64,000 nucleotides of DNA from Candidatus Multivoradales bacterium (GTDB taxonomy: Bacteria; Acidobacteriota; Thermoanaerobaculia; Multivoradales; JAHEKO01). The stretch is from the NCBI GenBank assembly GCA_965248055.1, contig CBDFIJ010000004.1, positions 1,376,001 to 1,440,000 on the forward strand, written 5' to 3'. A program made the translations under genes and the position numbers. The notes beneath the pieces were generated by a model, which worked only from the letters and a program-made list of their open reading frames with translations, did no database searches and was not told the origin of the DNA. Shown here piece by piece: positions 3,041 to 25,840 of the stretch. Position 1 is the first letter of the stretch. The number at the start of each line of letters is the position of its first letter.

Positions 3041-3148
3041 CTCCCCTAAGTGCCAGATGAGATGAGTCGGTCGGTCTCCAAGCTGGGACAATGTGCCAGT
3101 TTGGATCAACCAAAGAAATCGGCATCTAGCCGAGAAAGGAGACCGACC

Positions 3149-4162
3149 ATGGAGTATCTTGGCATTGACGTTCACTCAAAGTACAGCGAGGTATGTGGGA
3201 TATCTCAGGAGGGTGAGGTGACGGTTCGTCGTCGGATTTCGACGACGGAGACGTCGATCCGTGGGTTCTTCGGTTCTCGTGAGCGTGCACAAGTGACGCT
3301 GGAGAGCGGTCCGGTGACGCCGTGGGTATATCGGTTGCTGTGTGATCTAGGTCATGCGGTAACGGTAGTCAATCCCCGGCGAGTGCGTTTGATTGCCGAA
3401 TCGACACTAAAGACCGACGGCATTGATGCCGAGGTTTTAGCTCGGCTGAGCCGATTAGACCTGGGGTTTCTGCGTCCGGTGTATCAGCGAAGCCCTGAGG
3501 CCCAGGAGCTTCGCACTCGTTTACGGGTGCGATCGGCTCTGGTTAAGTCTCGGACTTCGTTGATCAACGCGGTACGTGGGACTCTGCGTGCTCAGGGCTA
3601 CCGGATGCCTTCGTGTGCGGCCAAGATTTTCATGGTGCGTTACGAATCGATGGGATTCGATTCGGGAGTATCAGAGGCCCTGGCTCCCTTGGTATCGACG
3701 ATCGGTGAGCTGTCGGATCGGATCTGTGAGCTAGAGAATGACCTGAAAGCTCAAGCAAGTACCGATGAGCTTCTCGTTCGTCTGCAGACAGTGCCCGGGG
3801 TAGGGCCTCTGGTGAGCTTGGCTTTTGCCGGCTGGGTAGACAATCCAGATCGGTTTCAAAAGAGTCGAGATGTTGGAGCATGCCTGGGCTTGAGGCCCTC
3901 GCTTCGCAGCTCAGGAGGGCATGAGATCCGTGGCCGGATCACTCGGGAGGGGGATAGCGAGATGCGCCGACTCCTGGTCCAGGCTGCGCATGCATCTTTA
4001 CAGTGTCACAAGGACTCAGCGCTCAAGCGCTGGGGTGAGGGTTTGGTGGCAAGGCTAGGTAAGAGCAAAGCAGTGGTAGCGCTGGCTAGAAAGATCGGAG
4101 TCCTACTGCATAGGTTGTGGGTCACAAACGAGAATTTCCAGCCGTTTCCACAAGCCACATAA
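3149..4162 (+). CDS. IS110-family DEDD transposase/recombinase
   Basis: YLGIDVH, LESG, KTDGIDA, TVPGVG, GLRPSLRSSG (catalytic Ser), AVVALARK; RBS aaggag before ATG 3149. Confidence 0.93.
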   Translation: MEYLGIDVHSKYSEVCGISQEGEVTVRRRISTTETSIRGFFGSRERAQVTLESGPVTPWVYRLLCDLGHAVTVVNPRRVRLIAESTLKTDGIDAEVLARLSRLDLGFLRPVYQRSPEAQELRTRLRVRSALVKSRTSLINAVRGTLRAQGYRMPSCAAKIFMVRYESMGFDSGVSEALAPLVSTIGELSDRICELENDLKAQASTDELLVRLQTVPGVGPLVSLAFAGWVDNPDRFQKSRDVGACLGLRPSLRSSGGHEIRGRITREGDSEMRRLLVQAAHASLQCHKDSALKRWGEGLVARLGKSKAVVALARKIGVLLHRLWVTNENFQPFPQAT

Positions 4163-4421
4163 GCGAGGATTCGAAGTAAGAAAGCAAGAGAAATCAGTCA
4201 TGAGTTTCAAAGGACGGATGAAAAGTTTCGATGACTCCGATAAATGGGTTGGAGGCTGGGACTCCGCGTGCCAGATGGGAGCATCGAATTTCCTCAACAG
4301 ACGGAAAACTCACCATGCACCGGTCCAAAGACGGACCCAAGAGAGTGCGAATAGAAGCTCGTCCTGAGGTTAGATCCGAATCTAAAGAACGCATGATCGA
4401 TGGAAAGAAAACCCTTGACTG
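4163..4421 (+). ncRNA. Putative bridge/seek RNA of the IS1111 element (boundaries approximate)
   Basis: Non-coding region downstream of the transposase. Contains gtgccag (4268-4274, equals left target flank + core), atagaag (4351-4357, equals IS right end + core) and atct (4380-4383, reverse complement of core + IS left end). Confidence 0.7.
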
Positions 4422-4486
4422 GACCGCCCGACTCATAGAAGCCGATTACTTGCAAGGTTGGGAACCTACGTTGCGTCTCCATTCCT

Positions 4487-5374
4487 ATGAGCCGCCGACT
4501 TCGATTCATCCCACCCGGTGGGGCGCTGGTAGAAATCACCTGCCGTACCTTTCAAGGGCGTTACCTCCTCAAGCCGTCTCCCGCTGTCAATCGGTGCATC
4601 CTGGGGATTCTCGGGCGGGCTCAGAGACTCTACCCCACCGAGGTCCATGCCTTTGTATTCATGTCGAATCACTACCATCTCTTGGTCTCAGTACCCGACG
4701 CTCAGCGCATGGCGCAATTCGTCGGCTACCTCAACAGCAATCTGGGACGCGAGTTGGGCAGAATGCATGGATGGAACGGGAAGTTTTGGGATCGCCGTTA
4801 TCAGGCCATCGTAGTCAGCGAAGAGGAAGCGGCTCAAGTGGCTCGACTTAAATACCTGTTGAGCCAAGGAGTCAAAGAGCGCTTAGTTAGACGTCCCACT
4901 GACTGGCCAGGTCTCCATGCTGCCAAGATCCTCCTGGCTAGTAATAGCACGATCACAGGCCGCTGGCGCGACCGAACACGCGAGTACCACGCCAGAGGAG
5001 CAGGCAATACGCAGGTATTTATGTGTATCGAACGACTCCACCTAACGCCCCTTCCATGTTGGCGTGATCAAACTACGCTTTGGATGCGACAACGAGTTCA
5101 AGAACTCGTCGACCTAGTCTGTGAAGAGAATTCCGGCCAAATCGTTGGAGATCCGCCCAATCCCAAACCCACCAAGCGTCCTGCCAGAATCAAGAGATCC
5201 CCAGTTCCACTTTTTCACTGTGCCACCAAGGCAGCCCGCAAAGCACTCTACGAAGCCTACTCCTGGTTTGTTGCCGCCTACAGGGATGCTTGTGAGCGAC
5301 TCAAAGCTGGGCACGAAAACGCCACCTTCCCTCCGGGATCGTTCCCACCGCCCAGACCATTCGTTCCTGTCTAG
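4487..5374 (+). CDS. RAYT-like HUH/Y1 transposase (IS200-like superfamily)
   Basis: N-terminal MSRRLR..EITCRT, HAFVFMSNHYHLLV (HUH), GKFWDRRY, KY catalytic Tyr candidate, DWPGLH; Pro-rich C-terminal extension. Confidence 0.88.
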   Translation: MSRRLRFIPPGGALVEITCRTFQGRYLLKPSPAVNRCILGILGRAQRLYPTEVHAFVFMSNHYHLLVSVPDAQRMAQFVGYLNSNLGRELGRMHGWNGKFWDRRYQAIVVSEEEAAQVARLKYLLSQGVKERLVRRPTDWPGLHAAKILLASNSTITGRWRDRTREYHARGAGNTQVFMCIERLHLTPLPCWRDQTTLWMRQRVQELVDLVCEENSGQIVGDPPNPKPTKRPARIKRSPVPLFHCATKAARKALYEAYSWFVAAYRDACERLKAGHENATFPPGSFPPPRPFVPV

Positions 5375-5609
5375 CTAATTACCGCTCGGTTTGGGCTGAA
5401 CCGGCACTTAGGAGAGGTATGTCCAATCTGAGTCTCTCCCTGTCTAAGAGCTCGATCCCGGAGTCAGAGTTCCGTTCCGGTGTGATTCCGGCCACCAACT
5501 GGGGAGCGCAGATGCGCCGACAACCGAGCTTCAGGAGGTGCTTCCAGACCTCTCAATAATCGCCTGGGACCTCAGTCAGGTACCTCGGCCCAACTCTTTC
5601 TTCGCACCT

Positions 5610-6101
5610 CTACCTAGAATGCACCATTCCAGAGTCCTTCGATACTGAATCAACTCTGACGTACTCCATGACGAGAGAAACTGACTCCTCTCCCCCAACT
5701 CGAACGGACAAGCCCAACACACACGCATCCAAGTCCTCGAAGAGATCAGCTTCCGAAAGATCGTCCCATCTGATGAAGGCGGACTGAGTTGCACCCCGTT
5801 CGACCACACACCTTCTCTCACACGAACCCTTATGAACACGTGCTTCGGATTTTGCTGTTGAACCGTCAACACGCGCAACTTCGCCGCACCGGTTAGTCAC
5901 AAGTACGTTATGCAAGAGCGGTGGAGGCGAGGGAGCAAAGACAGTAATAGGTTGCCACCGAATGTCTAGGCACTCAGTACTCACCTGGCAATCTACAGAA
6001 GGCTGCCCGGAACAGACCGGACGAAACTCTACCCACCGATCACAACCACAGACTACAAGTAGGACTACGCCCATGGTCCATATCGTCTTTGTCACGGGCA
6101 T
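5610..6101 (-). CDS. Putative lipoprotein immunity protein
   Basis: Hydrophobic N-terminus with lipobox-like VCGC; overlaps the stop of the upstream toxin tip (6092). Confidence 0.6.
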   Translation of the reverse strand: MPVTKTIWTMGVVLLVVCGCDRWVEFRPVCSGQPSVDCQVSTECLDIRWQPITVFAPSPPPLLHNVLVTNRCGEVARVDGSTAKSEARVHKGSCERRCVVERGATQSAFIRWDDLSEADLFEDLDACVLGLSVRVGGEESVSLVMEYVRVDSVSKDSGMVHSR

Positions 6102-6891
6102 GGATTTCCTACTTCACCTAGGACCATTGCAGCGTGTCCAATTGCCTGAGCTTCATATTCGTTGTCAACGTACGCATCCATACCTCTCAACCAAGCCCTG
6201 GTCGACGCTCCTAAGTACCTAGGGGCGAAGGAATAAACACCTCCGGCAAACTCACCGGCTTGATCACTATGAGTCAGTTCGTGGGCCACCAAGAGTGCAC
6301 TAGACTCCAGCTGGTCATAGGCGTCCTTGGCAAGGTAGATATCTGATCCAAGTGTAATCCCTCCCCAGTCCTCTTCTGACATCCCAGGTAGCAGTCCACG
6401 ATGGATCGTAACCGTTGAAAGGTTTATCGAGTAGTACGGCTGGAAAGAAGCCGAATAACAGTCCGGCAATAGCTTACTACCATCTGGATTCTGCTTGTTC
6501 TTCAAGTTTTGACCCCCAATCGTATCTTTGTCGCCAGCATCGTTGACTTGTGTCGGAACACCCACTGGGTTGTTTGAGAAGAAAGATAGGAGGATAGATG
6601 CGGACACCTCGGGCGGGGGAGCCGACCCTTGGATCTCATGGTAATCAGTTGGACCTGCAATCCCGGATGCTATGTCAAGCGCGGCTTCCCTGGAGAGGGC
6701 CACCTGAGAAACGTGGTAAGAAATGGGCTCCAGGCCATTGGGATCAAAGTACGTGATAACACCTCCTCTGGCATACCCATACCGATTCCAACTCCCCCCA
6801 CTTCCAGTATTGCCCAACACAGGGTCGACGCTCATAAACCTCCCTAAGTGGTTCGTATAAAACCTCGCATGCATGTAATCCATCCCAGTAT

Positions 6892-8260
6892 GAGATATAA
6901 CCGAAAGTTGTGTATGAGAGTTTGAAGGCGGCGTATCCTGAGCCCGGTTTTCAAAGCTGGGTTCAATCATCCCAAAAGGAGGATACGCCGTTGAGCAAGA
7001 GTAACGTAGTTTCAATCGATCAAGTAGAACGTCCTGAGGACGCTCTGAGTGAGGTCTTGCGCCGAGGTTCACGGTTGCTTCTTTGCGAAGCAATCGAGGC
7101 AGAGGTGGAGAGTTTTTTGGTTGAGTACCAAGATCAACGTACGGCGGTCGGTCACCGGCGGTTGGTGAGAAACGGCTACATGCCAGAGCGGGAGATCCAG
7201 ACCGGAATCGGCGGCATTTCGGTCAAAGTGCCACGGGTGCGGGATCGCCAGGGTGAGCTTCATTTTCGCTCCAATCTAGTGCCACCGTATCTGCGCCGGT
7301 CCAAGAGCATCGCGGATCTCTTGCCCTGGCTATACTTACGGGGGATTTCTACCGGGGACTTCTCACGAGCTCTGGAAGTTTTGGTGGGCCCTGAAGCGCC
7401 AGGTCTTTCGTCTTCGACGGTGAGCCGCCTCAAACGCGTCTGGGGCCAGGAGTACAGCGAATGGCGGCAGCGCGATCTTTCGTCCAAGCGCTACGTCTAT
7501 GTATGGGCTGACGGCATTTACTGCAAGGCTCGCCTGGATAACGCCAAGCTCTGCTTGCTGGTGTTAATTGGTGCCACTGCGGACGGCAACAAAGAACTGA
7601 TCGCTGTTGAAGACGGTTACCGGGAGAGTGAGGCGTCATGGCTGGAGCTGTTGCGAGGCCTGGAAGCAAGAGGCCTTACATTCGAGCCTAAGATCGCAAT
7701 CGGTGACGGCAATCTGGGTTTCTGGAAGGCTCTGGCTCAGGTGTGGGGAAATACCAAGACCCAGCGCTGCTGGGTCCACAAGACGGCCAACGTCTTGAAT
7801 AAGCTCCCCAAGGCGATCCAGCCCAAGGCCAAGCAGGCAATCCACCAAATCTGGATGGCGCAGACACGTCACGATGCCGAGAGGGCTTTTGATGCATTCC
7901 AGGCAATCTACCAAGCTAAATATCCGAAAGCAGTCCAGTGCTTGGTCAAAGATCGCGTCCAGCTACTCGCTTTCTACGATTTCCCGGCTGAGCACTGGGT
8001 GCATTTGAGGACCACCAACCCAATCGAATCAACTTTTGCTACCGTACGCTTGAGAACCTCCAAAACCCGGGGCTGTCTGTCGCGAGAAACCATGCTCTCG
8101 ATGGTCTTCAAGCTGTGCCAAAGCGCAGAAAAACGATGGCGGAGGCTACAGGGCTACAGGCGCATTGCCGAAGTCGTTGAAGGTCTCCAGTTCGTGGACG
8201 GAGAAAAACAAAAACAGATCGCCGCCTGATGGCTCAATACACAACTTTTGACAATAACTC
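6892..8260 (+). mobile_element. IS256-family element, copy 1 (no target duplication; adjacent Rhs sequence missing)
   Basis: Imperfect terminal IRs gagatataaccgaaagttgtgtat / atacacaacttttgacaataactc. Confidence 0.92.
6991..8229 (+). CDS. IS256-family (Mutator-type DDE) transposase
   Basis: RNGY..VPRVRDR, YVWADGIY, GDG, QRCWVHK, RTTNPIESTF; TTG start after aaggagg. Confidence 0.93.
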   Translation: MSKSNVVSIDQVERPEDALSEVLRRGSRLLLCEAIEAEVESFLVEYQDQRTAVGHRRLVRNGYMPEREIQTGIGGISVKVPRVRDRQGELHFRSNLVPPYLRRSKSIADLLPWLYLRGISTGDFSRALEVLVGPEAPGLSSSTVSRLKRVWGQEYSEWRQRDLSSKRYVYVWADGIYCKARLDNAKLCLLVLIGATADGNKELIAVEDGYRESEASWLELLRGLEARGLTFEPKIAIGDGNLGFWKALAQVWGNTKTQRCWVHKTANVLNKLPKAIQPKAKQAIHQIWMAQTRHDAERAFDAFQAIYQAKYPKAVQCLVKDRVQLLAFYDFPAEHWVHLRTTNPIESTFATVRLRTSKTRGCLSRETMLSMVFKLCQSAEKRWRRLQGYRRIAEVVEGLQFVDGEKQKQIAA

Positions 8261-8461
8261 CCATTGCTACCCCAGGTGGTCATGTTTCCGGAGGCGTCGT
8301 AACCGGCCACTGACAGCCGGTTGGTGTTGGCGTTAACCGCAATGGTGGTGGTTTGACATACCTCCAACATTCGGGTGGCACCTTTCCGGCCCGCACCGGA
8401 CCTCTTTAGAGCACCTACTTAGACATGTCCAACGATTGGTGTCCACCTCTACCAACAAACA

Positions 8462-9091
8462 TCAAGAATCCCAAATCTTGATCGCATCTATCACTCGCCA
8501 ATCACTATCTTCACGTTGCAAAACCACCATCCGTCCAGCTCCGCCTAGCTCAGCCCACTGACGCCCATAGTAAAGCAGCGCCTGACCACCATCACTGCTG
8601 AAGCCGACTCTAGAGAACACGATAATCCCCGCGGAGTCCGGGTAGCGGTCGTAGAACACACTCCAGGAAGGAACGCCTTCAAGCTCGTAGAGGGGAAAGT
8701 GACCGCTGCTGTTGTTCACTAATGTGACACGTGTATCGCTAAAGTGAGATCGATTCAACTTGATTGCCGCCTGGTTTTTTCTCACAAAAGATTCGAAAGT
8801 CGATCGTCGGAGATCAGATACGTGGACAGATAGCCACCCCCAAAGGCTCGACTGATCTTGGACGATGTCTTGCTCTTGAAAGGCCGGATCCATCGTTGTC
8901 TTATTGAATACGACGAGGGTGCTCGCTTCTGCATTTCCTCCGCCGGTAACTGCCCACGTCTTGTCTTGGAAGAGTCGGTTGTAGATTTCATAGTCTCGGA
9001 GGTGCTCATGCGGTACAGGAGCATGGCAAGACATCGCTGCGAAACCAATCGCGACCGAGAAAGATAGACCCAATGCTCGATTTCGCATCAC
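8462..9091 (-). CDS. Putative lipoprotein, probable immunity protein
   Basis: Signal peptide ending AMSC; lies directly downstream of the toxin-tip cassette 9168-9743. Confidence 0.6.
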   Translation of the reverse strand: MMRNRALGLSFSVAIGFAAMSCHAPVPHEHLRDYEIYNRLFQDKTWAVTGGGNAEASTLVVFNKTTMDPAFQEQDIVQDQSSLWGWLSVHVSDLRRSTFESFVRKNQAAIKLNRSHFSDTRVTLVNNSSGHFPLYELEGVPSWSVFYDRYPDSAGIIVFSRVGFSSDGGQALLYYGRQWAELGGAGRMVVLQREDSDWRVIDAIKIWDS

Positions 9092-9167
9092 CCCCCTCTG
9101 TTCGTCTTGAGCTTATTCATTGTGAGTTGTACCTATTTCAGCCCCAAGTGGCAACGTTCCTGTAAGT

Positions 9168-9743
9168 TCAAAAAATACAGGTTGCACAATAACCACCATT
9201 AACACCATGCCATTGACCATTGACGAGTACGCTAGATACACCCCCTCCACTTATATTTGAGAAACCCGACCACAAGCTGTTACCGCCGCCACCGCTGCCT
9301 GGTGCTTCAGGAGGCAGCTGCGTTTCCGACTGTTCGGGCACCGGCTTACTGGGAAAATGGTAATCCCATTCTGGCTCCTCTTCTGGTTTCCATTCTGGTC
9401 CGCAGCCTCCAGTCGATATTCCTTGTTCAAGCAACCAACCGGTTGCGGCCCCTCTGGATATGTCTCCCGATTCCGTCATAATCCGGGCAAGGTCTTGCTC
9501 CATGAATTGATGCTCGTCCCAGTTGTCTGCCCAGGTTCCGGAGAAGATGGCGATTCTCTCGCCTGAGAAGTTATACAAGAAGTACCAGCGGGCACCCTGG
9601 GTCACCATGTTGTTGGCGGTATCGTACTCATAACCATTGGCACCCCAGGAGGTCATGTTGCCGGAGGCGTCGTAGGCAGCGGATGACAACCGATTCGTGT
9701 CTGGATTCACAGCGATGGTGGTAGTTTGACATACCTCCAACAT
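9168..9743 (-). pseudogene. Orphan Rhs fragment with internal deletion fused to a variable tip
   Basis: MLEVCQTTTIAVNPDTN..SGERIA jumps directly to unrelated acidic/Gly-rich sequence; the YMHARFY..DPxG core is absent. Confidence 0.7.
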
Positions 9744-9767
9744 TCGGGTGGCACCTTTCCGCAGTTG

Positions 9768-10385
9768 GCTGGCGCGACCGAACACGCGAGTACCACGCCA
9801 GAGGAGCAGGCAATACGCAGGTATTTATGTGTATCGAACGACTCCACCTAACGCCCCTTCCATGTTGGCGTGATCAAACTACGCTTTGGATGCGACAACG
9901 AGTTCAAGAACTCGCCGACCTAGTCTGTGAAGAGAATTCCGGCCAAATCGTTGGAAGTCTGCCCAATCCCAAACCCACCAAGCGTCCTGCCAGAATCAAG
10001 AGATCCCCAGCTCCACTTTTTCACTGTGCCACCAAGGCAGCTCGCAACGCCCTCTACGAAGCCTACTCCTGGTTTGTTGCCGCCTACAGGGATGCTTGTG
10101 AGCGACTCAAAGCTGGGCACGAAAACGCTACCTTCCCTCCGGGATCGTTTCCACCGCCCAGACCATTCGTTCCTGTTTAGTTGATTCCGTTCCGTTTGGG
10201 TTTTATCGGCGCTTAGGGATTAGTATATCCAGTCCGAGTTTCTCCCCGTCCAAGAGCTGAACCGCTGAGCGAAAGTTCCGTTTCGGTGTGAATGAGATCA
10301 CGAACTTGACGTGTTCAATATATCCCTGATCAGCCCAATCAAGCAATTCTAGATTCTCTCAATAATCGCCTGGGACCTCAGTCAG
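9768..10385 (+). mobile_element. 5'-truncated RAYT copy with type-B 3' tail
   Basis: Near-identical to the 3' half of 4487-5374; ends in a head I site. Confidence 0.88.
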
Positions 10386-10513
10386 CGGCTGGGCTTACCA
10401 AAGCCTGGGGTACCGAGGACTGATAACTCGACTACCTAGATCCTGATGAGTGGCTGGAGCGTCATCGACTCCTACTTAGAGAGACCCAACAACACGCGCT
10501 GCCTTTCTTTGAT

Positions 10514-10620: not shown

Positions 10621-11358
10621 CTATTTCTCTATCTCCTCCTCACTCTCCTCCCAAGCCTCCAACCACTGAAGTGTCTTTTCAACCTTATGCGTCAAATTCT
10701 CGATTTCATCCTCATCTTCCTCGCCCTCAGGCAGTTCACGAAGCAGTTTCAAAGCGTCGTGGGCGGCAGCTAGAGCCTCGTCGTGGCGCCCCAGATCGTA
10801 GTACGAATAGGCCATCCCGTGGCGGCCTTCGATCCTCACAAATGTCTCCGCGCCGCGCTCGAATGCTTCCCGGAATCCAGCGAGCGCATCTTCTTCGCGG
10901 CCGAGCATCGACAAGGATCCCGCTTCGTAAATCCAGCCCCAAGGTTCGCCTCCCTCTCGCGCCAGCTGGAAGTACGGGAGAGTGACTTCCGGACCCATCT
11001 CCTCTCGAAGATAAATTGCAAACCACAGTAGTAGGTTCGCATCTACACCTTTCATCAGATGGGGAGGACTTGCATAACTAAGCGCCTCTCGAAATTCCCT
11101 TTTCTCAACAAGCAGCCGCAGCATGAACTCCCTCGCCATCGTGCTACTGGGGTCTAGCTTGAGGGCCGCACGATACAACCGCTTGGCCTTTATCTCATTG
11201 CCCATCGCGTTTCGTATCCACCCTCGCCAAGCCAACGACCACGCGTCCCGCCAGCCGAGAAACTCGGCCGCCAGGAGAAAGGCGTGCGAGGTCCGATAGT
11301 GACCGTTTTCGCAAAGCTCCATCGCCCTGTCGCGAGCCGCCTTCAGGAAATTGTACAT
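10621..11358 (-). CDS. Tetratricopeptide-repeat protein, probable immunity protein
   Basis: TPR-like helices (AKRLYRAALKLDP, LGREEDALAGFREA, LGRHDEALAA); downstream of a toxin tip. Confidence 0.7.
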   Translation of the reverse strand: MYNFLKAARDRAMELCENGHYRTSHAFLLAAEFLGWRDAWSLAWRGWIRNAMGNEIKAKRLYRAALKLDPSSTMAREFMLRLLVEKREFREALSYASPPHLMKGVDANLLLWFAIYLREEMGPEVTLPYFQLAREGGEPWGWIYEAGSLSMLGREEDALAGFREAFERGAETFVRIEGRHGMAYSYYDLGRHDEALAAAHDALKLLRELPEGEEDEDEIENLTHKVEKTLQWLEAWEESEEEIEK

Positions 11359-18956: not shown

Positions 18957-18977
18957 TCGGGTGGCACCTTTCCGGCC

Positions 18978-19466
18978 GCCAAATCGTTGGAAGTCTGCCC
19001 AATCCCAAACCCACCAAGCGTCCTGCCAGAATCAAGAGATCCCCAGCTCCACTTTTTCACTGTGCCACCAAGGCAGCTCGCAACGCCCTCTACGAAGCCT
19101 ACTCCTGGTTTGTTGCCGCCTACAGGGATGCTTGTGAGCGACTCAAAGCTGGGCACGAAAACGCTACCTTCCCTCCGGGATCGTTTCCACCGCCCAGACC
19201 ATTCGTTCCTGTTTAGTTGATTCCGTTCCGTTTGGGTTTTATCGGCGCTTAGGGATTAGTATATCCAGTCCGAGTTTCTCCCCGTCCAAGAGCTGAACCG
19301 CTGAGCGAAAGTTCCGTTTCGGCGTGAATGAGATCACGAACTTGACGTGTTCAAGATAGCCGTGATCAGCCCAATCAAAGAATCCTAGATTCTCTCAATA
19401 ATCGCCTGGAACCTCAGTCCAGCTGCCCGAGCAGACCTCTTAATAATCGCCTGGGACCTCAGTCAG
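18978..19466 (+). mobile_element. 5'-truncated RAYT copy with type-B tail and two head I sites
   Basis: Matches the 3' end of RAYT; begins right after the head III site 18939-18968. Confidence 0.88.
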
Positions 19467-19767: not shown

Positions 19768-19820
19768 CACCTTTCCGGCCGAGGTATCGCCGCCAAATAA
19801 TCGCCTGGCACCACTATCTG

Positions 19821-20720
19821 GGTCTCAGTACCCGACGCTCAGCGCATGGCGCAATTCGTCGGCTACCTCAACAGCAATCTGGGACGCGAGTTGGGCAGAA
19901 TGCATGGATGGAACGGGAAGTTTTGGGATCGCCGTTATCAGGCCATCGTAGTCAGCGAAGAGGAAGCGGCTCAAGTGGCTCGACTTAAATACCTGTTGAG
20001 CCAAGGAGTCAAAGAGGGCTTAGTTAGACGTCCCACTGACTGGCCAGGTCTCCATGCTGCCAAGTTACTCCTGGCAAGAAATAGCACTCTCACAGGCCGC
20101 TGGCGCGACCGAACACGCGAGTACCACGCCAGAGGAGCAGGCAATACGCAGGTATTTATGTGTATCGAACGACTCCACCTAACGCCCCTTCCATGTTGGC
20201 GTGATCAAACTACGCTTTGGATGCGACAACGAGTTCAAGAACTCGCCGACCTAGTCTGTGAAGAGAATTCCGGCCAAATCGTTGGAAGTCTGCCCAATCC
20301 CAAACCCACCAAGCGTCCTGCCAGAATCAAGAGATCCCCAGCTCCACTTTTTCACTGTGCCACCAAGGCAGCTCGCAACGCCCTCTACGAAGCCTACTCC
20401 TGGTTTGTTGCCGCCTACAGGGATGCTTGTGAGCGACTCAAAGCTGGGCACGAAAACGCTACCTTCCCTCCGGGATCGTTTCCACCGCCCAGACCATTCG
20501 TTCCTGTCTAGCTAATTACCGCTCGGTTTGGGCTGAACCGGCACTTAGGAGAGGTATGTCCAATCTGAGTCTCTCCCTGTCTAAGAGCTCGATCCCGGAG
20601 TCAGAGTTCCGTTCCAGTGTGATTCCGGCCACCAACTGGGGAGCGCAGATGCGCCGACAACCGAGCTTCAGGAGGTGCTTCCAGACCTCTCAATAATCGC
20701 CTGGGACCTCAGTCAGTCAG
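19821..20720 (+). mobile_element. 5'-truncated RAYT copy (lacks the HUH motif) with type-A tail
   Basis: Starts just after the HYH codons; ORF 19846..20511; tail matches 5375-5579. Confidence 0.88.
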
Positions 20721-20760: not shown

Positions 20761-21294
20761 CTATTTCTTCTGCATTCTACGAATTCCAGCAATCAGCGAC
20801 GTGAGGCGCGGAAACCGAACGCGATAGTACGCTCTTTCAAATTCATCGCGGTATTTCTCGGCATCTGCCTCAGAACCTCCCCCGGCACGACCGTTCAGTA
20901 GTGCCACGTGGTGGCCAATCTCGTGAAATAGCGTATCTCGAATCATTAGCGGGCGGAGTACTTTGGTCCAATAGAGCAATCGAGGATATGAGGCGAACAG
21001 ATTGTCTACAAGTATTTCAATGTGAGCGAGTTTGTGGTGTCGCGGAGCAAAATACGATCCAAGAGTGTTTTCTCGCAGATGCGTCCGTCCATGCACACGG
21101 TAAGGGGCCCGCTCCTTTCTTGATAGGGATGCCACATCTCGCAAAATGACACTCCCAAGACCCCGTGTGTACTTTTCCGGCAGCGTCACAAGCGTGCGCT
21201 CAACGACTTTCTCGACACCTCCAAAAGGGCTGGTTAGAGGGTGCCACAAGACTTTCAGGAGACGGCCTTTCTTCGACATGGAGTCCACAGCCAC
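20761..21294 (-). CDS. HExxH zincin-like protein in the immunity position
   Basis: LGSY..IEILV..RDTLFHEIGHH..EADAEKY; 12 nt downstream of a toxin tip stop. Confidence 0.65.
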   Translation of the reverse strand: MAVDSMSKKGRLLKVLWHPLTSPFGGVEKVVERTLVTLPEKYTRGLGSVILRDVASLSRKERAPYRVHGRTHLRENTLGSYFAPRHHKLAHIEILVDNLFASYPRLLYWTKVLRPLMIRDTLFHEIGHHVALLNGRAGGGSEADAEKYRDEFERAYYRVRFPRLTSLIAGIRRMQKK

Positions 21295-21306
21295 AAGGAT
21301 TCAGCT

Positions 21307-21785
21307 CTAGGGGTCACCATCAAACGCCTTCCCGATCCCATTCCAGATTATCATCTTAGCCTTCCCCCAGCGCGAAGTCGGCGATAGGAGTTCGTCCGCG
21401 TCAGGAGCAACGCCTTTTGCGTATTTTAGTCCCCTCCCCGCCTTTCCGCTCATCTTCACGAGGTACTTCGCTCTAGCAATCTTCGCAGCTGAACGTACCT
21501 TCCCTCCGGGTAGAACGAAGGTTGCCAGCTCGCCCAGTCCCTCGGCTATTTCAGTCTGTCCATCAAAGTGGTTAATTCCGCTAGAGGCGCCGCAGCCCAA
21601 TATGTTGTCGCCAAGACAGACGCCGCCAGAAGCATTCGTCCTTACCCTTGTAGTTATAACAGTGAGTTCTTCGTTCACTGAGAATGACCCAGCGTCAAAT
21701 TTCACTCCCGAGGATTCAGCAGAATCCACCCAAGCCCAATATGCTTTGACTTCTTCAGGGCTTGCCCCCGCAAGAAACTCAGCGC
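21307..21785 (-). pseudogene. 5'-truncated Rhs toxin tip
   Basis: NEELTVIT motif and basic C-terminus; cut by the RAYT left end at 21786. Confidence 0.6.
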
Positions 21786-22937
21786 TCCCCTAAGTGCCAG
21801 CTGATTATTTGCAAGGTTGGGAACCTACGTTGCGTCTCTATCCCCATGAGCCGCCGACTTCGATTCATCCCAGCCGGTGGGGCGCTGGTAGAAATCACCT
21901 GCCGTACCTTTCAAGGGCGTTACCTCCTCAAGCCGTCTCCCGCTGTCAATCGGTGCATCCTGGGGATTCTCGGGCGGGCTCAGAGACTCTACCCCACCGA
22001 GGTCCATGCCTTTGTATTCATGTCGAATCACTACCATCTCTTGGTCTCAGTACCCGACGCTCAGCGCATGGCGCAATTCGTCGGCTACCTCAACAGCAAT
22101 CTGGGACGCGAGTTGGGCAGAATGCATGGATGGAACGGGAAGTTTTGGGATCGCCGTTATCAGGCCATCGTAGTCAGCGAAGAGGAAGCGGCTCAAGTGG
22201 CTCGACTTAAATACCTGTTGAGCCAAGGAGTCAAAGAGGGCTTAGTTAGACGTCCCACTGACTGGCCAGGTCTCCATGCTGCCAAGTTACTCCTGGCAAG
22301 AAATAGCACGATCACAGGCCGCTGGCGCGACCGAACACGCGAGTACCACGCCAGAGGAGCAGGCAATACGCAGGTATTTATGTGTATCGAACGACTCCAC
22401 CTAACGCCCCTTCCATGTTGGCGTGATCAAACTACGCTTTGGATGCGACAACGAGTTCAAGAACTCGTCGACCTAGTCTGTGAAGAGAATTCCGGCCAAA
22501 TCGTTGGAGATCCGCCCAATCCCAAACCCACCAAGCGTCCTGCCAGAATCAAGAGATCCCCAGTTCCACTTTTTCACTGTGCCACCAAGGCAGCTCGCAA
22601 CGCCCTCTACGAAGCCTACTCCTGGTTTGTTGCCGCCTACAGGAATGCTTGTGAGCGACTCAAAGCTGGGCACGAAAACGCCGCCTTCCCTCCGGGATCG
22701 TTTCCACCGCCCAGACCATTCGTTCCTGTTTAGTTGATTCCGTTCCGTTTGGGTTTTATCGGCGCTTAGGGATTGGTATATCCAGTCCGAGTTTCTCCCC
22801 GTCCAAGAGCTAAACCGCTGAGTGAAAGTTCCGTTTCGGCGTGAATGAGATCACGAACTTGACGTGTTCAAGATAGCCGTGATCAGCCCAATCAAAGAAT
22901 CCTAGATTCTCTCAATAATCGCCTGGAACCTCAGTCC
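21786..22937 (+). mobile_element. Complete RAYT-like module, copy 2
   Basis: Left end ctcccctaagtgccagctgattatt and right end aataatcgcctggaacctcagtc form an imperfect inverted pair. Confidence 0.85.
21846..22733 (+). CDS. RAYT-like HUH/Y1 transposase, copy 2
   Basis: 295 aa, a few substitutions relative to 4487-5374. Confidence 0.88.
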   Translation: MSRRLRFIPAGGALVEITCRTFQGRYLLKPSPAVNRCILGILGRAQRLYPTEVHAFVFMSNHYHLLVSVPDAQRMAQFVGYLNSNLGRELGRMHGWNGKFWDRRYQAIVVSEEEAAQVARLKYLLSQGVKEGLVRRPTDWPGLHAAKLLLARNSTITGRWRDRTREYHARGAGNTQVFMCIERLHLTPLPCWRDQTTLWMRQRVQELVDLVCEENSGQIVGDPPNPKPTKRPARIKRSPVPLFHCATKAARNALYEAYSWFVAAYRNACERLKAGHENAAFPPGSFPPPRPFVPV

Positions 22938-23019
22938 AGCTGCCCGAGCAGACCTCTTAATAATCGCCTGGGACCTCAGTCAGTACCCCTTGACACCACG
23001 CCGCCTAATAAGTGGCACC

Positions 23020-23361
23020 TCAGTCAGCAGCACACAAGACGAAGGGCACTCCGGCGAGTACACAAACTACAAGGCCAATACCTGCAACACGACGCACCAA
23101 GCTACCGATCCGAACAAGTCTCGCCCCTAGAGCGTCGTCTTCTGCCCACATTGTATTTGCCGCACCGTCGATGAAATACGCAAATGGAACGAAAGTTCCA
23201 AACAACCATTTTGGGAAATCGCGTTTCTTCTTATATCTGAATAAGAGAACATACACTGCAGCCAACCAAACGGTTATCACAAACAAGAACTGCGTCATCA
23301 TTCCGGCAACGAAGAACACTTGGACTATCCTACATACCATTTCAGTCTCCCTCAGATGCAA
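23020..23361 (-). CDS. Membrane protein, immunity candidate; stop supplied by a site tail
   Basis: Three hydrophobic segments; the TGA is the tca of the tcagtcag tail at 23020. Confidence 0.6.
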   Translation of the reverse strand: MHLRETEMVCRIVQVFFVAGMMTQFLFVITVWLAAVYVLLFRYKKKRDFPKWLFGTFVPFAYFIDGAANTMWAEDDALGARLVRIGSLVRRVAGIGLVVCVLAGVPFVLCAAD

Positions 23362-23364
23362 TAT

Positions 23365-23742
23365 TTACTCACTAGAGCACGGATCACCAATGGTCCCAGA
23401 AGTAGACTCTCCGCTTGCCCATGCCGCACCAGGCGGTCCACCGGTAATGGAGACGGACCAATTGCTTTGACCAGAATAGTTGTCTTTGCTTCTCGTAAAA
23501 CCGACAGGGCCAGCCATCCATAGAGAGGTTGTTTGACTCGATCCTAGCGGTGGGCCGTGGGTGTACTGGATTCCAGCCCCTACCGCAACCCCAATTCCGT
23601 TTCCTTCAGTGCTCCGTCCAGCTAGCCCGCGCGTGCCGGCAGAGCCCTCTAAAGCGGCCCCCTTCCAGAGTCCCCCCGCTGCTGCCGCTACGAATTCAAC
23701 GCTATTATTGCAGTAGATTTCGACAATCTCTTCGAGTACCGC
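23365..23742 (-). pseudogene. Gly-rich toxin tip truncated by IS256
   Basis: Gly/Ala/Ser-rich frame directly upstream of an immunity-like gene; 5' end replaced by the IS left end. Confidence 0.6.
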
Positions 23743-24270
23743 GAGATATAACCAAAAGTTGTGTATGAGAGTTTGAAGGCGGCGTATCCTGAGCCCGGTT
23801 TTCAAAGCTGGGTTCAATCATCCCAAAAGGAGGACACGCCGTTGAGCAAGAGTAACGTAGTTTCAATCGATCAAGTAGAGCGTCCTGAGGACGCTCTGAC
23901 CGAGGTCTTGCGCCGAGGTTCACGGTTGCTTCTTTGCGAAGCAATCGAGGCAGAGGTGGAGAGTTTTTTGGTTGAGTACCAAGATCAACGTACGGCGGTC
24001 GGTCACCGGCGGTTGGTGAGAAACGGCTACATGCCAGAGCGGGAGATCCAGACCGGAATCGGCGGCATTTCGGTCAAAGTGCCACGGGTGCGGGATCGCC
24101 AGGGTGAGCTTCATTTTCGCTCCAATCTAGTGCCACCGTATCTGCGCCGGTCCAAGAGCATCGCGGATCTCTTGCCCTGGCTATACTTACGGGGGATTTC
24201 TACCGGGGACTTCTCACGAGCTCTGGAAGCTTTGGTGGGCCCTGAAGCGCCAGGTCTTTCGTCTTCGACG
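23743..24270 (+). mobile_element. Truncated IS256 (left end + 5' third of transposase)
   Basis: Nearly identical to the 5' part of copy 1; breaks at a RAYT-end segment at ~24271. Confidence 0.92.
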
Positions 24271-24721
24271 GCCCGAGCAGACCTCTTAATAATCGCCTGG
24301 GACCTCAGTCAGAGCGTCACTTCCAGATCTCTCAATAATCGCCTGGAACCTCAGTCACAGTCACCGCCGGGGGAAATCTATCCCTTGACATAACCCCGCC
24401 TAATAAGTGGCACCTCAATCCAATCAGCGGTTCCGGCACCACAATCACAGAAGTTCCATTTTCGGCGTAATCTCTGCCACCAACTAGGCACTCTGAAGCA
24501 CCTACGCCGACCCCAATGCGTGATCCTAGGCCTCCAAATAATCGCCTGGCACCATTATCTCCTCTATCTCCTCTAGCCCGAGCAGACCTCTTAATAATCG
24601 CCTGGGACCTCAGTCAGTAGTAGTCTCCGTAGATCCATCTGCATAGGTTATGGTCGTGGTTTCGTGAGTTGGTTGCACCTTTCCGGCCGAGGTATCGCCG
24701 CCAAATAATCGCCTGGCACCA

Positions 24722-24829
24722 CTATCTCATTTCGTCGATACATAAAGGGAAAATGTCCACCCCGGGATCACAGCCCGAAGCAGCCATCGCCAGAATCACT
24801 ATTGAACTCAAAGACATTTTTCGCAGCAT
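24722..24829 (-). pseudogene. Truncated lipoprotein immunity gene (not in the ORF track)
   Basis: Translates MLRKMSLSSIVILAMAASGCDPGVDIFPLCIDEMR*; lipobox ASGC; resembles the 5610-6101 N-terminus; stop comes from the site tail. Confidence 0.6.
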
Positions 24830-24859
24830 TGTCCTATGCTCCATTATCAAACCGGCTAC

Positions 24860-25030
24860 TTAGCCGTCTCCACATGGGTCACCGACGGCCTTGTCCGTCA
24901 TCTCCTCGACAGCATAGGCCTCCTGCTCCTGATGGATAGCAGCATAGGCTTGGTCGCCGGTCATTCCGGCGGCAACACCATCGAGCCAATGGTCGCCATA
25001 GTCCGACAAGAACGAGACAAGGCCCCCGAA
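24860..25030 (-). pseudogene. Last ~55 codons of another toxin tip
   Basis: PFGGLVSFLSDYGDHWLDG..GDPCGDG* between a RAYT remnant and a lipoprotein remnant. Confidence 0.5.
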
Positions 25031-25373
25031 CGGGATCGTTTCCACCGCCCAGACCATTCGTTCCTGTTTAGTTGACTCCGTTTCGTTTCGGGATTTTGTC
25101 GGCGCATAGGGATTGGTATATCCAGTCCGAGTTTCTCCCCGTCCAAGAGCTGAACCGCTGAGTGAAAGCTCCGTTTCGGCGTGAATATGATCGCAACTTA
25201 ACGTGTTCAATATATCCGTGATCAGCCTGATCAAGGAATTCTAGATTCTCTCAATAATCGCCTGGGACCTCAGTCACCTATTCCGGCCACCAACTGGGGA
25301 GCGCAGATGCCCCGACAACCGAGCCTCGGAGGTGCTTCCAGACCTCTCAATAATCGCCTGGGACCTCAGTCAG
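25031..25373 (+). mobile_element. RAYT 3' remnant with diverged type-B tail plus partial type-A tail
   Basis: Last 41 nt of the RAYT gene; head I sites at 25253 and 25349. Confidence 0.85.
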
Positions 25374-25438
25374 TCTAGATACTGAGTGGTCTGCGTGAGG
25401 TCGCCCATATTGGACTGCGTCGACAGCCAGCCGGGGCA

Positions 25439-25840
25439 CTACAAAGATTTGAGATAATCCGCGCACCACTTGAAACCAGATATTGTTTCAAACTCGACAC
25501 TAACCTCAGGATGCTTGAAGATTGGGACGTACGCCGCTTCTTTACCAATGACCGAAACAACCACCTTTCTCCCTTCCCAATGCAAGTCACAAACCGCGAC
25601 GTAGCCAGTACGCACGAGATCGATTCTCTTACCTCGTACTCCTGCTGGTATATTTTTAGCGGTTTCCCTAAAGTCCATGATTCCAACTACATACGGCTGA
25701 TCTTCGTCGCCCGCGGAGCGCACTCGCCGAATGATGAAAGCCGCATACTGCCCGTCCTGGCTGTCAATCGAGTAAACCGGGTATTCACACGAGCAGCTTG
25801 AACAAAGTAAGAGGCATCCTAGAACAATAGATTTCATCAT
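25439..25840 (-). CDS. Cognate immunity candidate of the main Rhs toxin (lipoprotein-like)
   Basis: MMKSIVLGCLLLCSSC signal; ATGA overlap with the Rhs stop at 25837. Confidence 0.7.
   Translation of the reverse strand: MMKSIVLGCLLLCSSCSCEYPVYSIDSQDGQYAAFIIRRVRSAGDEDQPYVVGIMDFRETAKNIPAGVRGKRIDLVRTGYVAVCDLHWEGRKVVVSVIGKEAAYVPIFKHPEVSVEFETISGFKWCADYLKSL

What the first reader, a model, noticed from the sequence alone, without database searches (positions are those of the whole stretch)
3041..25840. Candidate new system: RAYT/HUH-transposase-driven, integron-like shuffling array of Rhs toxin-immunity cassettes
Seen: about 10 toxin-tip/immunity modules lie downstream of one full Rhs gene, all on the minus strand. 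They alternate with six full or partial copies of one RAYT-like HUH transposase, all on the plus strand, and with at least 24 same-orientation TGG(C/G/A)ACC-core sites. A site sits just beyond the 3' end of nearly every immunity gene (sites ending 5571, 10590, 13007, 17295, 20708, 23019, 24720, 25365) and at the 5' end of four orphan Rhs cores, much as attC sites flank integron cassettes. Known: orphan Rhs-CT arrays and RAYT HUH nucleases exist, and RAYTs cut and rejoin ssDNA at short motifs. Inference: this transposase rearranges or captures cassettes at its own end motifs and so diversifies the toxin repertoire. I am not aware of a mechanistic description of such a system.
Basis: partly seen in the sequence, partly recalled or inferred. 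Interest (0 to 1): 0.92.

Follow-up and report, generated by a model that had tools for sequence, protein, structure and literature searches.

The report
Rhs toxin array colonised by Y1 transposons
A bacterial contact-toxin (Rhs) gene is followed by spare toxin/antidote cassettes interleaved with copies of a RAYT-like transposon whose end motif marks the cassette borders; this pairing recurs in related bacteria, but whether the transposase moves the cassettes is unproven.

Summary
A 2035-aa Rhs gene (31944-25837, minus) is followed by about 8 orphan tip/immunity modules. Six full or truncated copies of one 295-aa Y1/HUH gene lie on the plus strand, with 30 plus-strand against 6 minus-strand TGG(C/G/A)ACC sites.

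The motif is really about 25-30 nt. It is the conserved core of the terminal inverted repeats that flank every Y1 paralogue, here and across related Acidobacteriota genomes. That makes these elements the known TIRYT/"TIRtron" kind, not REP-RAYT.

The link to Rhs recurs. In 3 of 5 other genomes, 12 of 58 Rhs core ends have a Y1 gene within 5 kb (about 0.9 expected), 11 of the 12 on the opposite strand. In most loci inspected the right-end core lies tens of bases past the immunity stop codon.

Ordinary processes explain much of the array: IS256 and IS110 insertions, segmental duplication and microhomology deletions. The family also abuts the 3' ends of unrelated housekeeping genes. The sites do not fold like attC, and no excision or integration was shown.

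Verdict: a real, recurrent TIRYT-Rhs association. "Transposase-driven, integron-like shuffling" is plausible (about 0.3) but not demonstrated.

The parts
25837..31944 (-). Full-length Rhs/YD polymorphic toxin gene (2035 aa) with PKD and Ig domains
   Evidence: Pfam RHS_repeat, PKD_4 and Ig_3. TIGR03696 Rhs_assc_core at aa 1729-1808.
31941..32750 (-). Upstream ORF (269 aa) overlapping the Rhs start; function unknown
   Evidence: ORF list. No Pfam or NCBIfam hit.
25439..25855 (-). Putative cognate immunity ORF (138 aa) overlapping the Rhs stop
   Evidence: Position only. No family above cut-off.
25280..25375 (+). Solo right-end (RE-a) remnant. Its core at 25359-25365 abuts the main immunity gene.
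   Evidence: 97% identical to 5485-5579 and 20622-20718. Context.
25031..25276 (+). Y1 copy F: last codons of the gene plus an RE-b end (core 25263-25269)
24283..24727 (+). Stack of six motif units with no genes between them (cores 24298, 24344, 24408, 24547, 24603, 24714)
   Evidence: Contains 100% copies of 12861-13029 and 19709-19819.
23743..24271 (+). IS256-type fragment (5' part)
   Evidence: 98.9% identical to 6892-7420. Transposase_mut.
23020..23817 (-). Core-less two-ORF cassette (150 aa and 113 aa). Core 23013-23019 lies 1 nt past the stop.
   Evidence: No Pfam hit.
21792..22983 (+). Intact Y1 element E: left-end repeat at 21792, gene 21846-22733, right-end cores at 22924 and 22969
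20761..21729 (-). Core-less two-ORF cassette (140 aa and 177 aa). The 177-aa ORF has a homologue in the Rhs array of the same-genus genome G001, about 77% nucleotide identity (76-77%), right after a core.
19810..20716 (+). Y1 copy D, 5'-truncated at the HUH codons, with an RE-a end (core 20702)
   Evidence: imperfect microhomology at the junction.
18978..19466 (+). Y1 copy C, 5'-truncated, with an RE-b end (cores 19407 and 19452)
   Evidence: 8-nt microhomology at the junction.
17329..18974 (-). Orphan module: motif leader (core 18962), 459-aa Rhs core end plus tip, 83-aa ORF, then core 17289
13049..16957 (-). Large orphan (94% identical to main Rhs 26618-28007) interrupted by IS256, plus tip and a 121-aa ORF, then core 13001
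14178..15545 (-). IS256-type element, a simple insertion with an 8-9-bp target duplication
   Evidence: The flanks both match 18332-18340 of the paralogous orphan. Transposase_mut.
10621..12846 (-). Orphan module: motif leader (core 12834), core fragment, 226-aa ORF, TPR ORF, then core 10584
9768..10386 (+). Y1 copy B, 5'-truncated, with an RE-b end (core 10371)
8462..9761 (-). Orphan module: motif leader (core 9749), 205-aa core end plus tip, 209-aa ORF
5610..8388 (-). Orphan module: motif leader (core 8376), core fragment split by IS256 (6892-8260), tip with an eCIS_core domain, 163-aa ORF, then core 5565
4444..5579 (+). Y1 element A: gene 4487-5374 and RE-a end (core 5565). Its left-end repeat is interrupted by IS110.
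3050..4443 (+). IS110-family element inserted in the left-end repeat of element A
   Evidence: Pfam DEDD_Tnp_IS110 and Transposase_20. Boundaries from the four genome copies.

Best explanation
What it is: an Rhs polymorphic-toxin locus with an orphan tip/immunity array. The island is about 30 kb and is absent from the syntenic site of the same-genus genome. It has been colonised by TIRYT-type elements ("TIRtrons"). These are a 295-aa RAYT-like Y1/HUH gene bracketed by inverted repeats of about 25 nt whose conserved core is AGGTnCCA...TGGnACCT. The TGG(C/G/A)ACC sites are these ends: intact ends, ends of 5'-truncated copies, and solo remnants.

How it arose (inferred): elements of this family sit with their right end a few tens of bases past the stop codon of a convergent gene. 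At Rhs loci that gene is the immunity gene, so tip, immunity gene and Y1 element form a linked module. The array grew and was reshuffled mainly by ordinary routes. These are duplication and homologous exchange of such modules through the shared Rhs core and the shared Y1/repeat sequences, short-homology deletions that trimmed the Y1 copies and stacked the solo ends, and later IS256 and IS110 insertions.

Shown: the anatomy, the identity of motif and repeat, and the recurrence of the pairing across genera.
Inferred: the route of growth. Catalysis by the Y1 protein at the cores is not required by this reading and has not been shown.
For: Motif equals element end:
- 8 of the 10 paralogues checked show an inverted core 53-55 nt upstream of the start codon, and 8 show one or more cores 200-260 nt past the stop; the exceptions are copy A (left end cut by IS110), the truncated p2373 copy and p2198.
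- The same holds in the same-genus genome G001.
- A TGGnAC[C/G] core follows the gene in 10 of 11 loci from relatives.
- 64 of 79 further loci have TGGNACC within 700 nt of the stop, most of them about 235-275 nt after it.

Concentration: a position-weight scan gives 75 genome hits against 11 in shuffled sequence. Of these, 21 lie in the array, 33 lie within 3 kb of other Y1 genes or fragments, and 17 lie near neither a Y1 gene nor an Rhs core.

Fold and catalytic residues: pLDDT 86; best PDB hit 4er8 TnpA-REP (E 1.1e-6), followed by ISDra2 and IS608 TnpA. NHYH and KYLLSQ align to the ISDra2 HUH and Tyr.

Island: window 177-2356 and 33117-40000 are contiguous in G001 except for a 3.4-kb stretch holding one Y1 element.

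Recurrence:
- Rhs core ends with a Y1 gene within 5 kb: G011 6 of 9, G012 2 of 3, G032 4 of 7, G040 0 of 14, G034 0 of 25. About 0.9 are expected in total, and 11 of the 12 are on the opposite strand.
- 10 of 79 Y1 loci from named Acidobacteriota genome records carry an Rhs. All 10 are on the opposite strand and 9 of the 10 are on the right-end side.
- In five loci the right-end core lies 24-47 nt past an immunity-gene stop.

Ordinary processes:
- 9548-9761 equals 18761-18974 at 100%, and the adjoining Y1 pieces B and C are 98% identical, so this is a segmental duplication.
- Junction C shares 8 nt with the intact gene, and junction D shares an imperfect 11 nt.
- IS256 (3 of about 11 copies) and IS110 (1 of 4) are in the same island.
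- Convergent neighbours of 40 other Y1 loci are diverse: AsmA/YhdP, lyase, AIR-synthase-like, ferritin, kinase, CHAT.
Against: - Flank types reassort exactly at the 7-8-nt core. All four combinations of two left types and two right types occur, plus further combinations. Repeated use of one 7-8-nt site is more than random illegitimate recombination would predict.
- Four orphans start at the same motif leader, and orphans in G032 and other genomes also begin at or near a solo core. The classical Rhs displacement model predicts arbitrary 5' truncation points. However, the four window orphans are paralogous and count as one or two events.
- G001 Rhs arrays hold 5 solo cores with no Y1 gene nearby.
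- Rhs adjacency appears in at least 9 separate Y1 lineages. This suggests a propensity rather than one hitch-hiking event. The rows were partly chosen because they were Rhs-adjacent.
- A 3266-bp unit running from a left end to a distal third right end is 99.9% identical at two genome sites. The elements are therefore recently mobile and can carry extra DNA beyond the first right end.
Confidence: 0.55

Rival explanations
1. Active mobilisation. The Y1 protein cuts and rejoins single-stranded DNA at the cores. Segments bounded by same-orientation cores, or by a left end and a distal right-end-type core, then move as cassettes or as cargo of the element. This would deliver Rhs tips with a piece of core next to a resident Rhs gene, where homologous recombination can install them. 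It would be an HUH-based functional analogue of an integron or of a cargo-carrying IS200-type element.
For: - All array cores read on one strand, the arrangement a single-strand enzyme needs.
- Flanks reassort at the core.
- Orphans begin at a core and end at a core in the window and in G032 locus L040. A whole Rhs operon lies between same-type cores in L047.
- At genome locus L013 a cassette lies between two cores in the opposite gene orientation, so the cores track cassette borders rather than gene expression.
- Solo cores match the repeat flavour of the resident Y1 in each genome.
- A 99.9% identical 3266-bp unit ends at a distal core, not at the first right end.
- Catalytic residues are intact.
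Against: - No event was observed.
- The repeats are inverted around the gene and form no hairpins, unlike every Y1 system whose mechanism is solved.
- Two junctions are microhomology deletions.
- Short direct repeats alone can give deletion and duplication with reassorted flanks.
- Most Y1 loci have no toxin neighbour (69 of 79; 49 of 51 metagenome loci).
- The right border of the island (32750-33115) has no recognisable core.
Confidence: 0.3
2. The motif is an expression signal of the cassettes (terminator, promoter or ribosome-binding leader), and its likeness to the Y1 ends is secondary.
For: - On the coding strand the common unit begins with stops in two or three frames.
- The leader at orphan 5' ends supplies an ATG in frame with the Rhs core (read from the sequence).
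Against: - No stable hairpin or T-run.
- The same sequence brackets every Y1 gene in inverted orientation.
- Units are stacked with no genes between them at 24283-24727.
- At L013 the cassette has the opposite orientation to the cores.
Confidence: 0.05
3. Assembly artefact: the alternation of repeats was produced by mis-joining of repeated pieces.
For: - The order of the repeats could not be checked, because the public runs are short contigs that break at every repeat.
Against: - The unique pieces and their junctions into the repeats are each present as contigs with 0 differences in the three or four runs for which the piece is listed in the truncated table (table 8).
- The chromosome is a single 3.35-Mb contig.
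- The same architecture occurs in independent genomes.
Confidence: 0.03

Closest known systems
TIRYT / TIRtron (Di Nocera et al. 2013, PMC3733652; passages read). Discussed as subclass 2.1 in Quentin et al. 2018, PMC6006769 (abstract and section 15 part 1 read).
   Same: - A RAYT-like Y1 gene flanked by terminal inverted repeats instead of REP hairpins.
- The repeats form a family found as singles, dimers and clusters.
- Several diverged copies per genome.
- Reported as prominent in Acidobacteria.
   Different: - No link to Rhs or toxin cassettes is described in the passages read.
- The published common repeat motif is GGGGWSAS; here the core is AGGTnCCA.
- This protein has Y-x-x-x-Q rather than the Y-x-x-x-NP of class 2.
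- It is 295 aa, with an extension of about 150 aa that has no PDB match.
- Whether it falls in their Acidobacteria group could not be checked, because their alignment is a supplement and supplements are closed.
Rhs orphan tip/immunity arrays (polymorphic toxin systems; Zhang et al. 2012, PMC3482391, passages read)
   Same: - A full Rhs gene followed by tip-immunity pairs that keep a piece of the core.
- Diversification by recombination at the 3' tip.
   Different: - Orphans here begin at a transposon-end motif and are interleaved with Y1 copies.
- That paper mentions XerC/D recombinases beside polyimmunity loci. Its single use of the word "transposase" in the held text concerns URI-domain nucleases, not the toxin arrays.
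REP-RAYT (REPtron), E. coli TnpA-REP, PDB 4er8
   Same: - Best structural match of the N-terminal 150 aa.
- The gene is bracketed by inverted copies of its cognate repeat.
- The repeat also occurs away from the gene.
   Different: - No REP hairpin and no GTAG.
- About 10 paralogues rather than about one copy.
- Below the NCBIfam cut-off, 51 against 80 bits.
- The repeats are few (tens) and clustered, not dispersed.
Integrons, and recombinase-associated interbacterial defence arrays of Bacteroidales (rAID; PMC12247911, passages read)
   Same: - Co-oriented short cassettes, each followed by a conserved intergenic motif.
- A recombination enzyme gene in or beside the array.
- In rAID the cargo is orphan immunity genes.
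   Different: - Those use a tyrosine recombinase of the integrase family, and integron attC sites fold.
- Here the candidate enzyme is an HUH Y1 nuclease, the sites do not fold, and enzyme copies are scattered through the array in the opposite orientation.
IS200/IS605 (ISDra2, IS608 TnpA)
   Same: - Y1 fold, HUH motif and a Y-x-x-x-Q motif.
- A single-strand "peel and paste" mechanism would suit same-strand cores.
   Different: - Those have subterminal hairpins and no inverted repeats.
- They encode a protein of 130-150 aa and insert next to a 4-5-nt target.

Membership tests
Rhs/YD polymorphic toxin with orphan array | Full-length protein with RHS/YD repeats ending in the Rhs-associated core | tested here: met
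   PF05593 6.5e-17; TIGR03696 61.5 bits against a cut-off of 32.5.
Rhs/YD polymorphic toxin with orphan array | Downstream modules that keep a core fragment, a divergent C-terminus and a small following ORF | tested here: met
   TIGR03696 hits in four orphan ORFs; 10 hits in the genome, of which 7 are in the window; core homology mapped.
Rhs/YD polymorphic toxin with orphan array | Toxic tip neutralised by the neighbouring gene product | not testable with these tools
   Apart from an eCIS_core domain in the orphan-1 tip and TPR repeats in the 245-aa ORF 10621-11358, the tips and small ORFs have no family above its cut-off.
RAYT / REPtron | Y1 HUH nuclease fold with HUH and catalytic Tyr | tested here: met
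   Model pLDDT 86; 4er8_A E 1.1e-6, TM on target 0.75; HUH and Tyr aligned to ISDra2 TnpA.
RAYT / REPtron | Reaches the curated family score (NF047646) | tested here: not met
   51.4 bits against a cut-off of 80. Pfam Y1_Tnp scores 37.4 against 23.
RAYT / REPtron | Flanked by REP hairpins | tested here: not met
   Motif units fold no better than shuffles, z from -1.55 to +0.69 in 8 of 8 pieces.
RAYT / REPtron | About one copy per genome (Bertels et al. 2017, PMC5581495, passages read) | tested here: not met
   9 full-length copies plus fragments in this genome; up to 25 matches in relatives.
TIRYT / TIRtron | RAYT-like gene flanked by terminal inverted repeats at fixed distances | tested here: met
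   Left end 53-55 nt upstream in 8 of the 10 paralogues checked, right end 200-260 nt downstream in 8. Same in G001 and in relatives.
TIRYT / TIRtron | The repeats form a genomic family of singles, dimers and clusters | tested here: met
   75 hits against 11 in shuffled sequence; tandem stacks at 19407/19452, 22924/22969/23013 and 24298-24714.
TIRYT / TIRtron | Sequence membership in the published TIRYT groups | not testable with these tools
   Their alignment is a supplementary file, and supplements are closed.
IS200/IS605 | Subterminal hairpins, no inverted repeats, TnpA of about 130-150 aa | tested here: not met
   Inverted repeats are present, there are no hairpins, and the protein is 295 aa.
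Integron | IntI-type tyrosine recombinase next to the array | tested here: not met
   None among the 30 ORFs between 3050 and 32750 scanned with Pfam. Smaller ORFs were not scanned.
Integron | attC-like sites that fold as single strands | tested here: not met
Integron | Site-specific excision and integration of cassettes | tested here: inconclusive
   Flank reassortment at the core is compatible with it. The read test gave only contigs.

The most novel reading that the evidence does not exclude
A clade of TIRYT-type Y1/HUH transposases in Acidobacteriota (class Thermoanaerobaculia, judged from the record titles of homologous loci) works as a cassette vehicle for Rhs toxin tips. Its right end docks at the immunity gene. 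A second, distal end-type core lies at the 5' edge of a retained piece of Rhs core and closes the mobile unit. Single-strand cutting and joining at the AGGTnCCA cores inserts, deletes and reorders tip-immunity cassettes. Homologous recombination through the carried core fragment then installs the new tip on the resident Rhs gene. This would be the first HUH-based counterpart of an integron, and the first assigned biological role for TIRYT elements.
Probability: 0.3. Interest if true: 0.85.

Novelty: new variant of a known kind. Interest (0 to 1): 0.6.

Why it matters
How Rhs and other polymorphic toxins acquire new tips together with the matching immunity gene is usually put down to unspecified recombination. 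What the many RAYT-like and TIRYT genes do is also unknown.

This locus, and at least ten loci in other genera, place the end of a TIRYT element a few tens of bases from the immunity gene's stop codon. Its end motif also sits between successive cassettes. This gives a concrete, testable candidate for both questions.

Even if the enzyme plays no catalytic part, the element would still give cassettes a shared downstream stretch of homology and a shared short repeat, which is enough to shape how toxin arrays grow. I found no paper linking Y1, RAYT or TIRYT genes to Rhs arrays. That rests on full-text searches of the held library; subscription journals are not covered.

Tried and rejected
1. Read evidence for rearrangement. 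Four runs of one sample hold the stretch, but only as short contigs. Contigs break at the repeats. One loose end beyond a core was matched to another genome copy of the same unit (copy at 2,228,348); the loose ends at 10591 and 17295 were not traced. This gives no information for or against circles or variants.

3. Exact 25-nt right-end unit in metagenome contigs: 0 matches. Y1 relatives in metagenome contigs: 51 loci, best identity 53%, so no close strain was available for an array comparison. Only 2 of the 51 carry an Rhs-like hit, and many of these loci are short.

4. Hairpin or attC-like folding of the units: none.

5. Sigma-54 or sigma-70 promoter reading of TGGCAC: no matching downstream or upstream element by eye. 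Dropped without a formal scan.

6. A core at the right border of the island (32650-33220 aligned to G001): only weak likeness.

7. Orthology of element A with the Y1 at the syntenic G001 site: rejected. The G001 copy groups with paralogues at 1.48 Mb.

8. Clusters of same-orientation cores outside Rhs loci:
- G000 684-686 kb: a tRNA-adjacent variable region with small miscellaneous ORFs.
- G001 C1 108-117 kb: small miscellaneous genes (protease-like, glyoxalase, unknown ORFs) beside conserved housekeeping genes.
- G000 66-69 kb: an IS-rich region.
So the motif is not exclusive to toxins.

The matrix was then built from genome coordinates instead.

10. The tree test of Rhs adjacency is biased, because the G011, G012 and G032 loci were fetched for being Rhs-adjacent. 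I use only the minimum number of separate lineages from it.

Full report
**Anatomy**

The window is bases 1,376,001-1,440,000 of a 3.35-Mb contig, 57% G+C. ORF 25837-31944 (minus strand, 2035 aa) is an Rhs/YD protein with PKD and Ig domains. Its Rhs-associated core lies at aa 1729-1808.

Going downstream, towards lower coordinates, there are five pieces that keep an Rhs core end followed by a divergent C-terminus and a small ORF: 17577-18974, 13423-16957, 12184-12846, 9168-9761 and 6092-8388. There is also a duplicated toxin fragment (19466-19767) and two cassettes without core (20761-21729 and 23020-23817). Only one tip has a family hit above its cut-off (eCIS_core) and one immunity-position ORF is a TPR-repeat protein; the other small ORFs have none.

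Six copies of one gene lie on the opposite strand. Copies A (4487-5374) and E (21846-22733) are full length. Copies B, C, D and F are truncated at the 5' side and all keep the 3' end.

- an IS110-family element at 3050-4443;
- two IS256-type elements, at 6892-8260 and 14178-15545;
- an IS256 fragment at 23743-24271.

**The motif**

TGGVACC occurs 50 times in the window against 29.6 +/- 5.1 in shuffles. Inside 5565-25365 it is on the plus strand 30 times and on the minus strand 6 times. The genome-wide density is 0.25 per kb per strand, and the array's 20-kb bin is the richest in the genome, with 22 sites against 12 for the next bin.

Read in context, about 25 of the sites belong to units of 30-45 nt. 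A 17-nt version allowing up to 2 mismatches has 24 genome matches, 16 of them in the array.

The key point is that the same sequence, inverted, lies 53-55 nt upstream of the start codon of 8 of the 10 Y1 paralogues checked. One or more direct copies lie 200-260 nt past the stop of 8 of them. So the motif is the terminal inverted repeat of the element, with the conserved core AGGTnCCA...TGGnACCT.

The repeat is equally found in other genomes:
- around both Y1 genes of the same-genus genome G001;
- in 10 of 11 loci from other relatives;
- in 64 of 79 loci from named Acidobacteriota and Thermoanaerobaculia genome records, most of them about 235-275 nt after the stop.

A 24-nt weight matrix built from 16 ends gives 75 genome hits at score 16, against 11 in shuffled sequence. 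Of these, 21 are in the array and 33 are within 3 kb of other Y1 genes or fragments. Eleven hits outside the array lie within 8 kb of an Rhs core (some of these also count among the 33), and 17 lie near neither. The motif is therefore not spread over the genome like a classical REP. The units do not fold: z-scores run from -1.55 to +0.69 for 8 of 8 pieces.

**The protein**

- Pfam Y1_Tnp scores 37 bits against a cut-off of 23.
- NCBIfam REP-associated tyrosine transposase scores 51 bits, below its cut-off of 80.
- An AlphaFold model built from a 22-sequence alignment has pLDDT 86.
- Its N-terminal 150 residues best match E. coli TnpA-REP (4er8; E 1.1e-6, TM 0.75 on the target), then ISDra2 and IS608 TnpA.
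- NHYH and KYLLSQ align with the HUH and the catalytic Tyr of ISDra2 TnpA.
- Residues 155-273 form an extra domain without a PDB match.

The family is large. There are 1212 hits at E <= 0.001, and sources call them "transposase" or "REP element-mobilizing transposase RayT". It is present in 36 of 41 related genomes, with up to 25 matches per genome. That tally includes the unpublished genome G002; no other claim here rests on it.

In the literature this is the TIRYT/TIRtron kind. These are RAYT-like genes flanked by inverted repeats that also occur as singles, dimers and clusters, with a sharply defined group in Acidobacteria (PMC3733652, passages; PMC6006769, abstract and section 15 part 1). 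Their supplementary alignment could not be seen, so membership of that exact group is open.

**Is the link to Rhs more than chance?**

In this genome the other Rhs-related places also carry the motif:
- a second, IS3-ridden Rhs locus at 2.228-2.235 Mb;
- the region downstream of the second full Rhs, at 2.334 Mb;
- a locus at 1.48 Mb, where the last roughly 25 codons of an Rhs core plus a tip start about 25 nt after a Y1 right end and are closed by another same-orientation core.

In G001 the syntenic site holds only a Y1 element, so the whole 30-kb island is missing there. G001's Rhs arrays lie elsewhere. They contain 5 solo cores on the Rhs coding strand and no Y1 gene.

In five further genomes with few contigs, the Rhs core ends that have a Y1 gene within 5 kb are:

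| Genome | Rhs core ends with Y1 within 5 kb |
|---|---|
| G011 | 6 of 9 |
| G012 | 2 of 3 |
| G032 | 4 of 7 |
| G040 | 0 of 14 |
| G034 | 0 of 25 |

About 0.9 are expected in total, and 11 of the 12 are on the opposite strand.

In a sample not chosen for Rhs, 10 of 79 Y1 loci from named genome records carry an Rhs-like gene within the held flanks. All 10 are on the opposite strand and 9 are on the right-end side. Of 51 mostly short metagenome loci, 2 do.

Where inspected, the right-end core lies 24-47 nt past the stop of the immunity ORF (L035, L036, L074, L115). Solo cores of the resident flavour lie between successive Rhs modules (G032 locus L040; L047).

On a Y1 tree, Rhs adjacency needs at least 9-10 changes among 108 rows. 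Some rows were fetched because they were Rhs-adjacent, so only the minimum number of lineages is meaningful.

**What argues for ordinary processes**

- The convergent neighbours of 40 other Y1 loci are a mixed set of housekeeping and other genes. Sitting just past the 3' end of a convergent gene is therefore a habit of the family, not something special to immunity genes.
- IS256 (3 of about 11 copies) and IS110 (1 of 4) also accumulate in this island. Other places with solo cores are IS-rich or variable regions.
- Orphans 2 and 4 share 214 nt at 100% identity, and the adjoining Y1 pieces B and C are 98% identical. This is a segmental duplication.
- The C junction shares 8 nt with the intact gene, and the D junction shares an imperfect 11 nt. 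These look like illegitimate deletions.
- The Y1 copies in the array are 89-98% identical over the parts they share (77-92% for fragment F), so they arose within this genome. Other paralogues are 62-67% identical at the protein level.

**What is left over**

- The sequences to the left and right of the 7-8-nt core assort independently. Two left types combine with two right types in all four ways, and further combinations exist. This needs repeated exchange exactly at the core. Slippage between short direct repeats could do it, and so could a site-specific enzyme.
- Four orphans begin with the same leader of about 40 nt, in which the core is followed by an ATG in frame with the Rhs core. These orphans are paralogous, so they count as one or two events. 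A G032 orphan also begins at a core.
- A 3266-bp unit is 99.9% identical at two genome sites. It runs from a left end through the Y1 gene and two right-end cores to a third, distal core that holds an IS110. The elements have therefore moved recently, and they use a distal end.

**Verdict**

The recurrent, oriented TIRYT-Rhs pairing is real. As far as my searches reach it is undescribed. The nearest precedents for an enzyme beside a toxin or immunity array are XerC/D next to polyimmunity loci and the rAID arrays.

That the Y1 enzyme itself moves the cassettes is a reasonable hypothesis at about 0.3. It is supported only by circumstantial anatomy.

Noticed in passing
window 3050-4443; genome copies at 804,837, 1,144,445 and 2,104,276: Four identical IS110-family copies. 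The element's left terminus begins with the same GTGCCAG as the Y1 repeat core. Three copies sit inside a Y1 repeat (the left end of element A; a distal right end of the 1.142-Mb and 2.107-Mb elements). The fourth is joined to a tandem TGGCAC. This looks like target-specific insertion into the repeat, as known for IS110 relatives that insert into REPs (abstract of PMC8450116 seen in the listing).
   Followed up: partly
window 2356-33117 compared with G001:C2:417144-420515: The whole Rhs island is absent from the syntenic site of the same-genus genome, which holds one Y1 element there. That Y1 groups with the paralogues at 1.48 Mb, not with elements A and E. The site was therefore occupied independently, or the copy was replaced.
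   Followed up: partly
window 8350-8388, 9720-9761, 12805-12846, 18933-18974 (minus strand): The repeat-derived leader at orphan 5' ends contains an ATG in frame with the Rhs core and a purine-rich stretch about 10 nt upstream. The orphans could therefore be translated as stand-alone truncated Rhs proteins.
   Followed up: no
window 6892-8260 and 14178-15545: The second IS256-type copy is a simple insertion with an 8-9-bp duplication. The first is flanked by Rhs segments that are about 420 bp apart in the main gene, which indicates an IS-associated deletion or an exchange between IS copies.
   Followed up: partly
L013 (G000:C4:1476001-1492000): Two 99%-alike Y1 elements lie 5.3 kb apart. Between them are an Rhs tail plus tip, small ORFs, same-orientation cores and a CHASE2-TIR domain protein.
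   Followed up: partly
L014 (G000:C4:2224001-2238000): A second Rhs locus broken by three IS3-family (rve) elements, with one array-type core downstream.
   Followed up: partly
L157-L164 (metagenome contigs): Short contigs match only the last 50-67 residues of the Y1 protein, at 60-70% identity. That is higher than any full-length metagenome hit (53% or less). They are either 3'-end remnants like copy F or a separable C-terminal module.
   Followed up: no
genome contigs C1-C3: Three small contigs (15-28 kb) have 39-43% G+C against 57% for the chromosome. They may be other replicons or foreign DNA in the assembly.
   Followed up: no
L028 (G000:C4:684,400-685,800): Four to five same-orientation cores in intergenic gaps between small ORFs, in a stretch of about 4 kb that G001 lacks. 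A 99%-conserved 79-nt segment lies nearby, probably a tRNA gene; this was not checked with the tRNA tool.
   Followed up: partly
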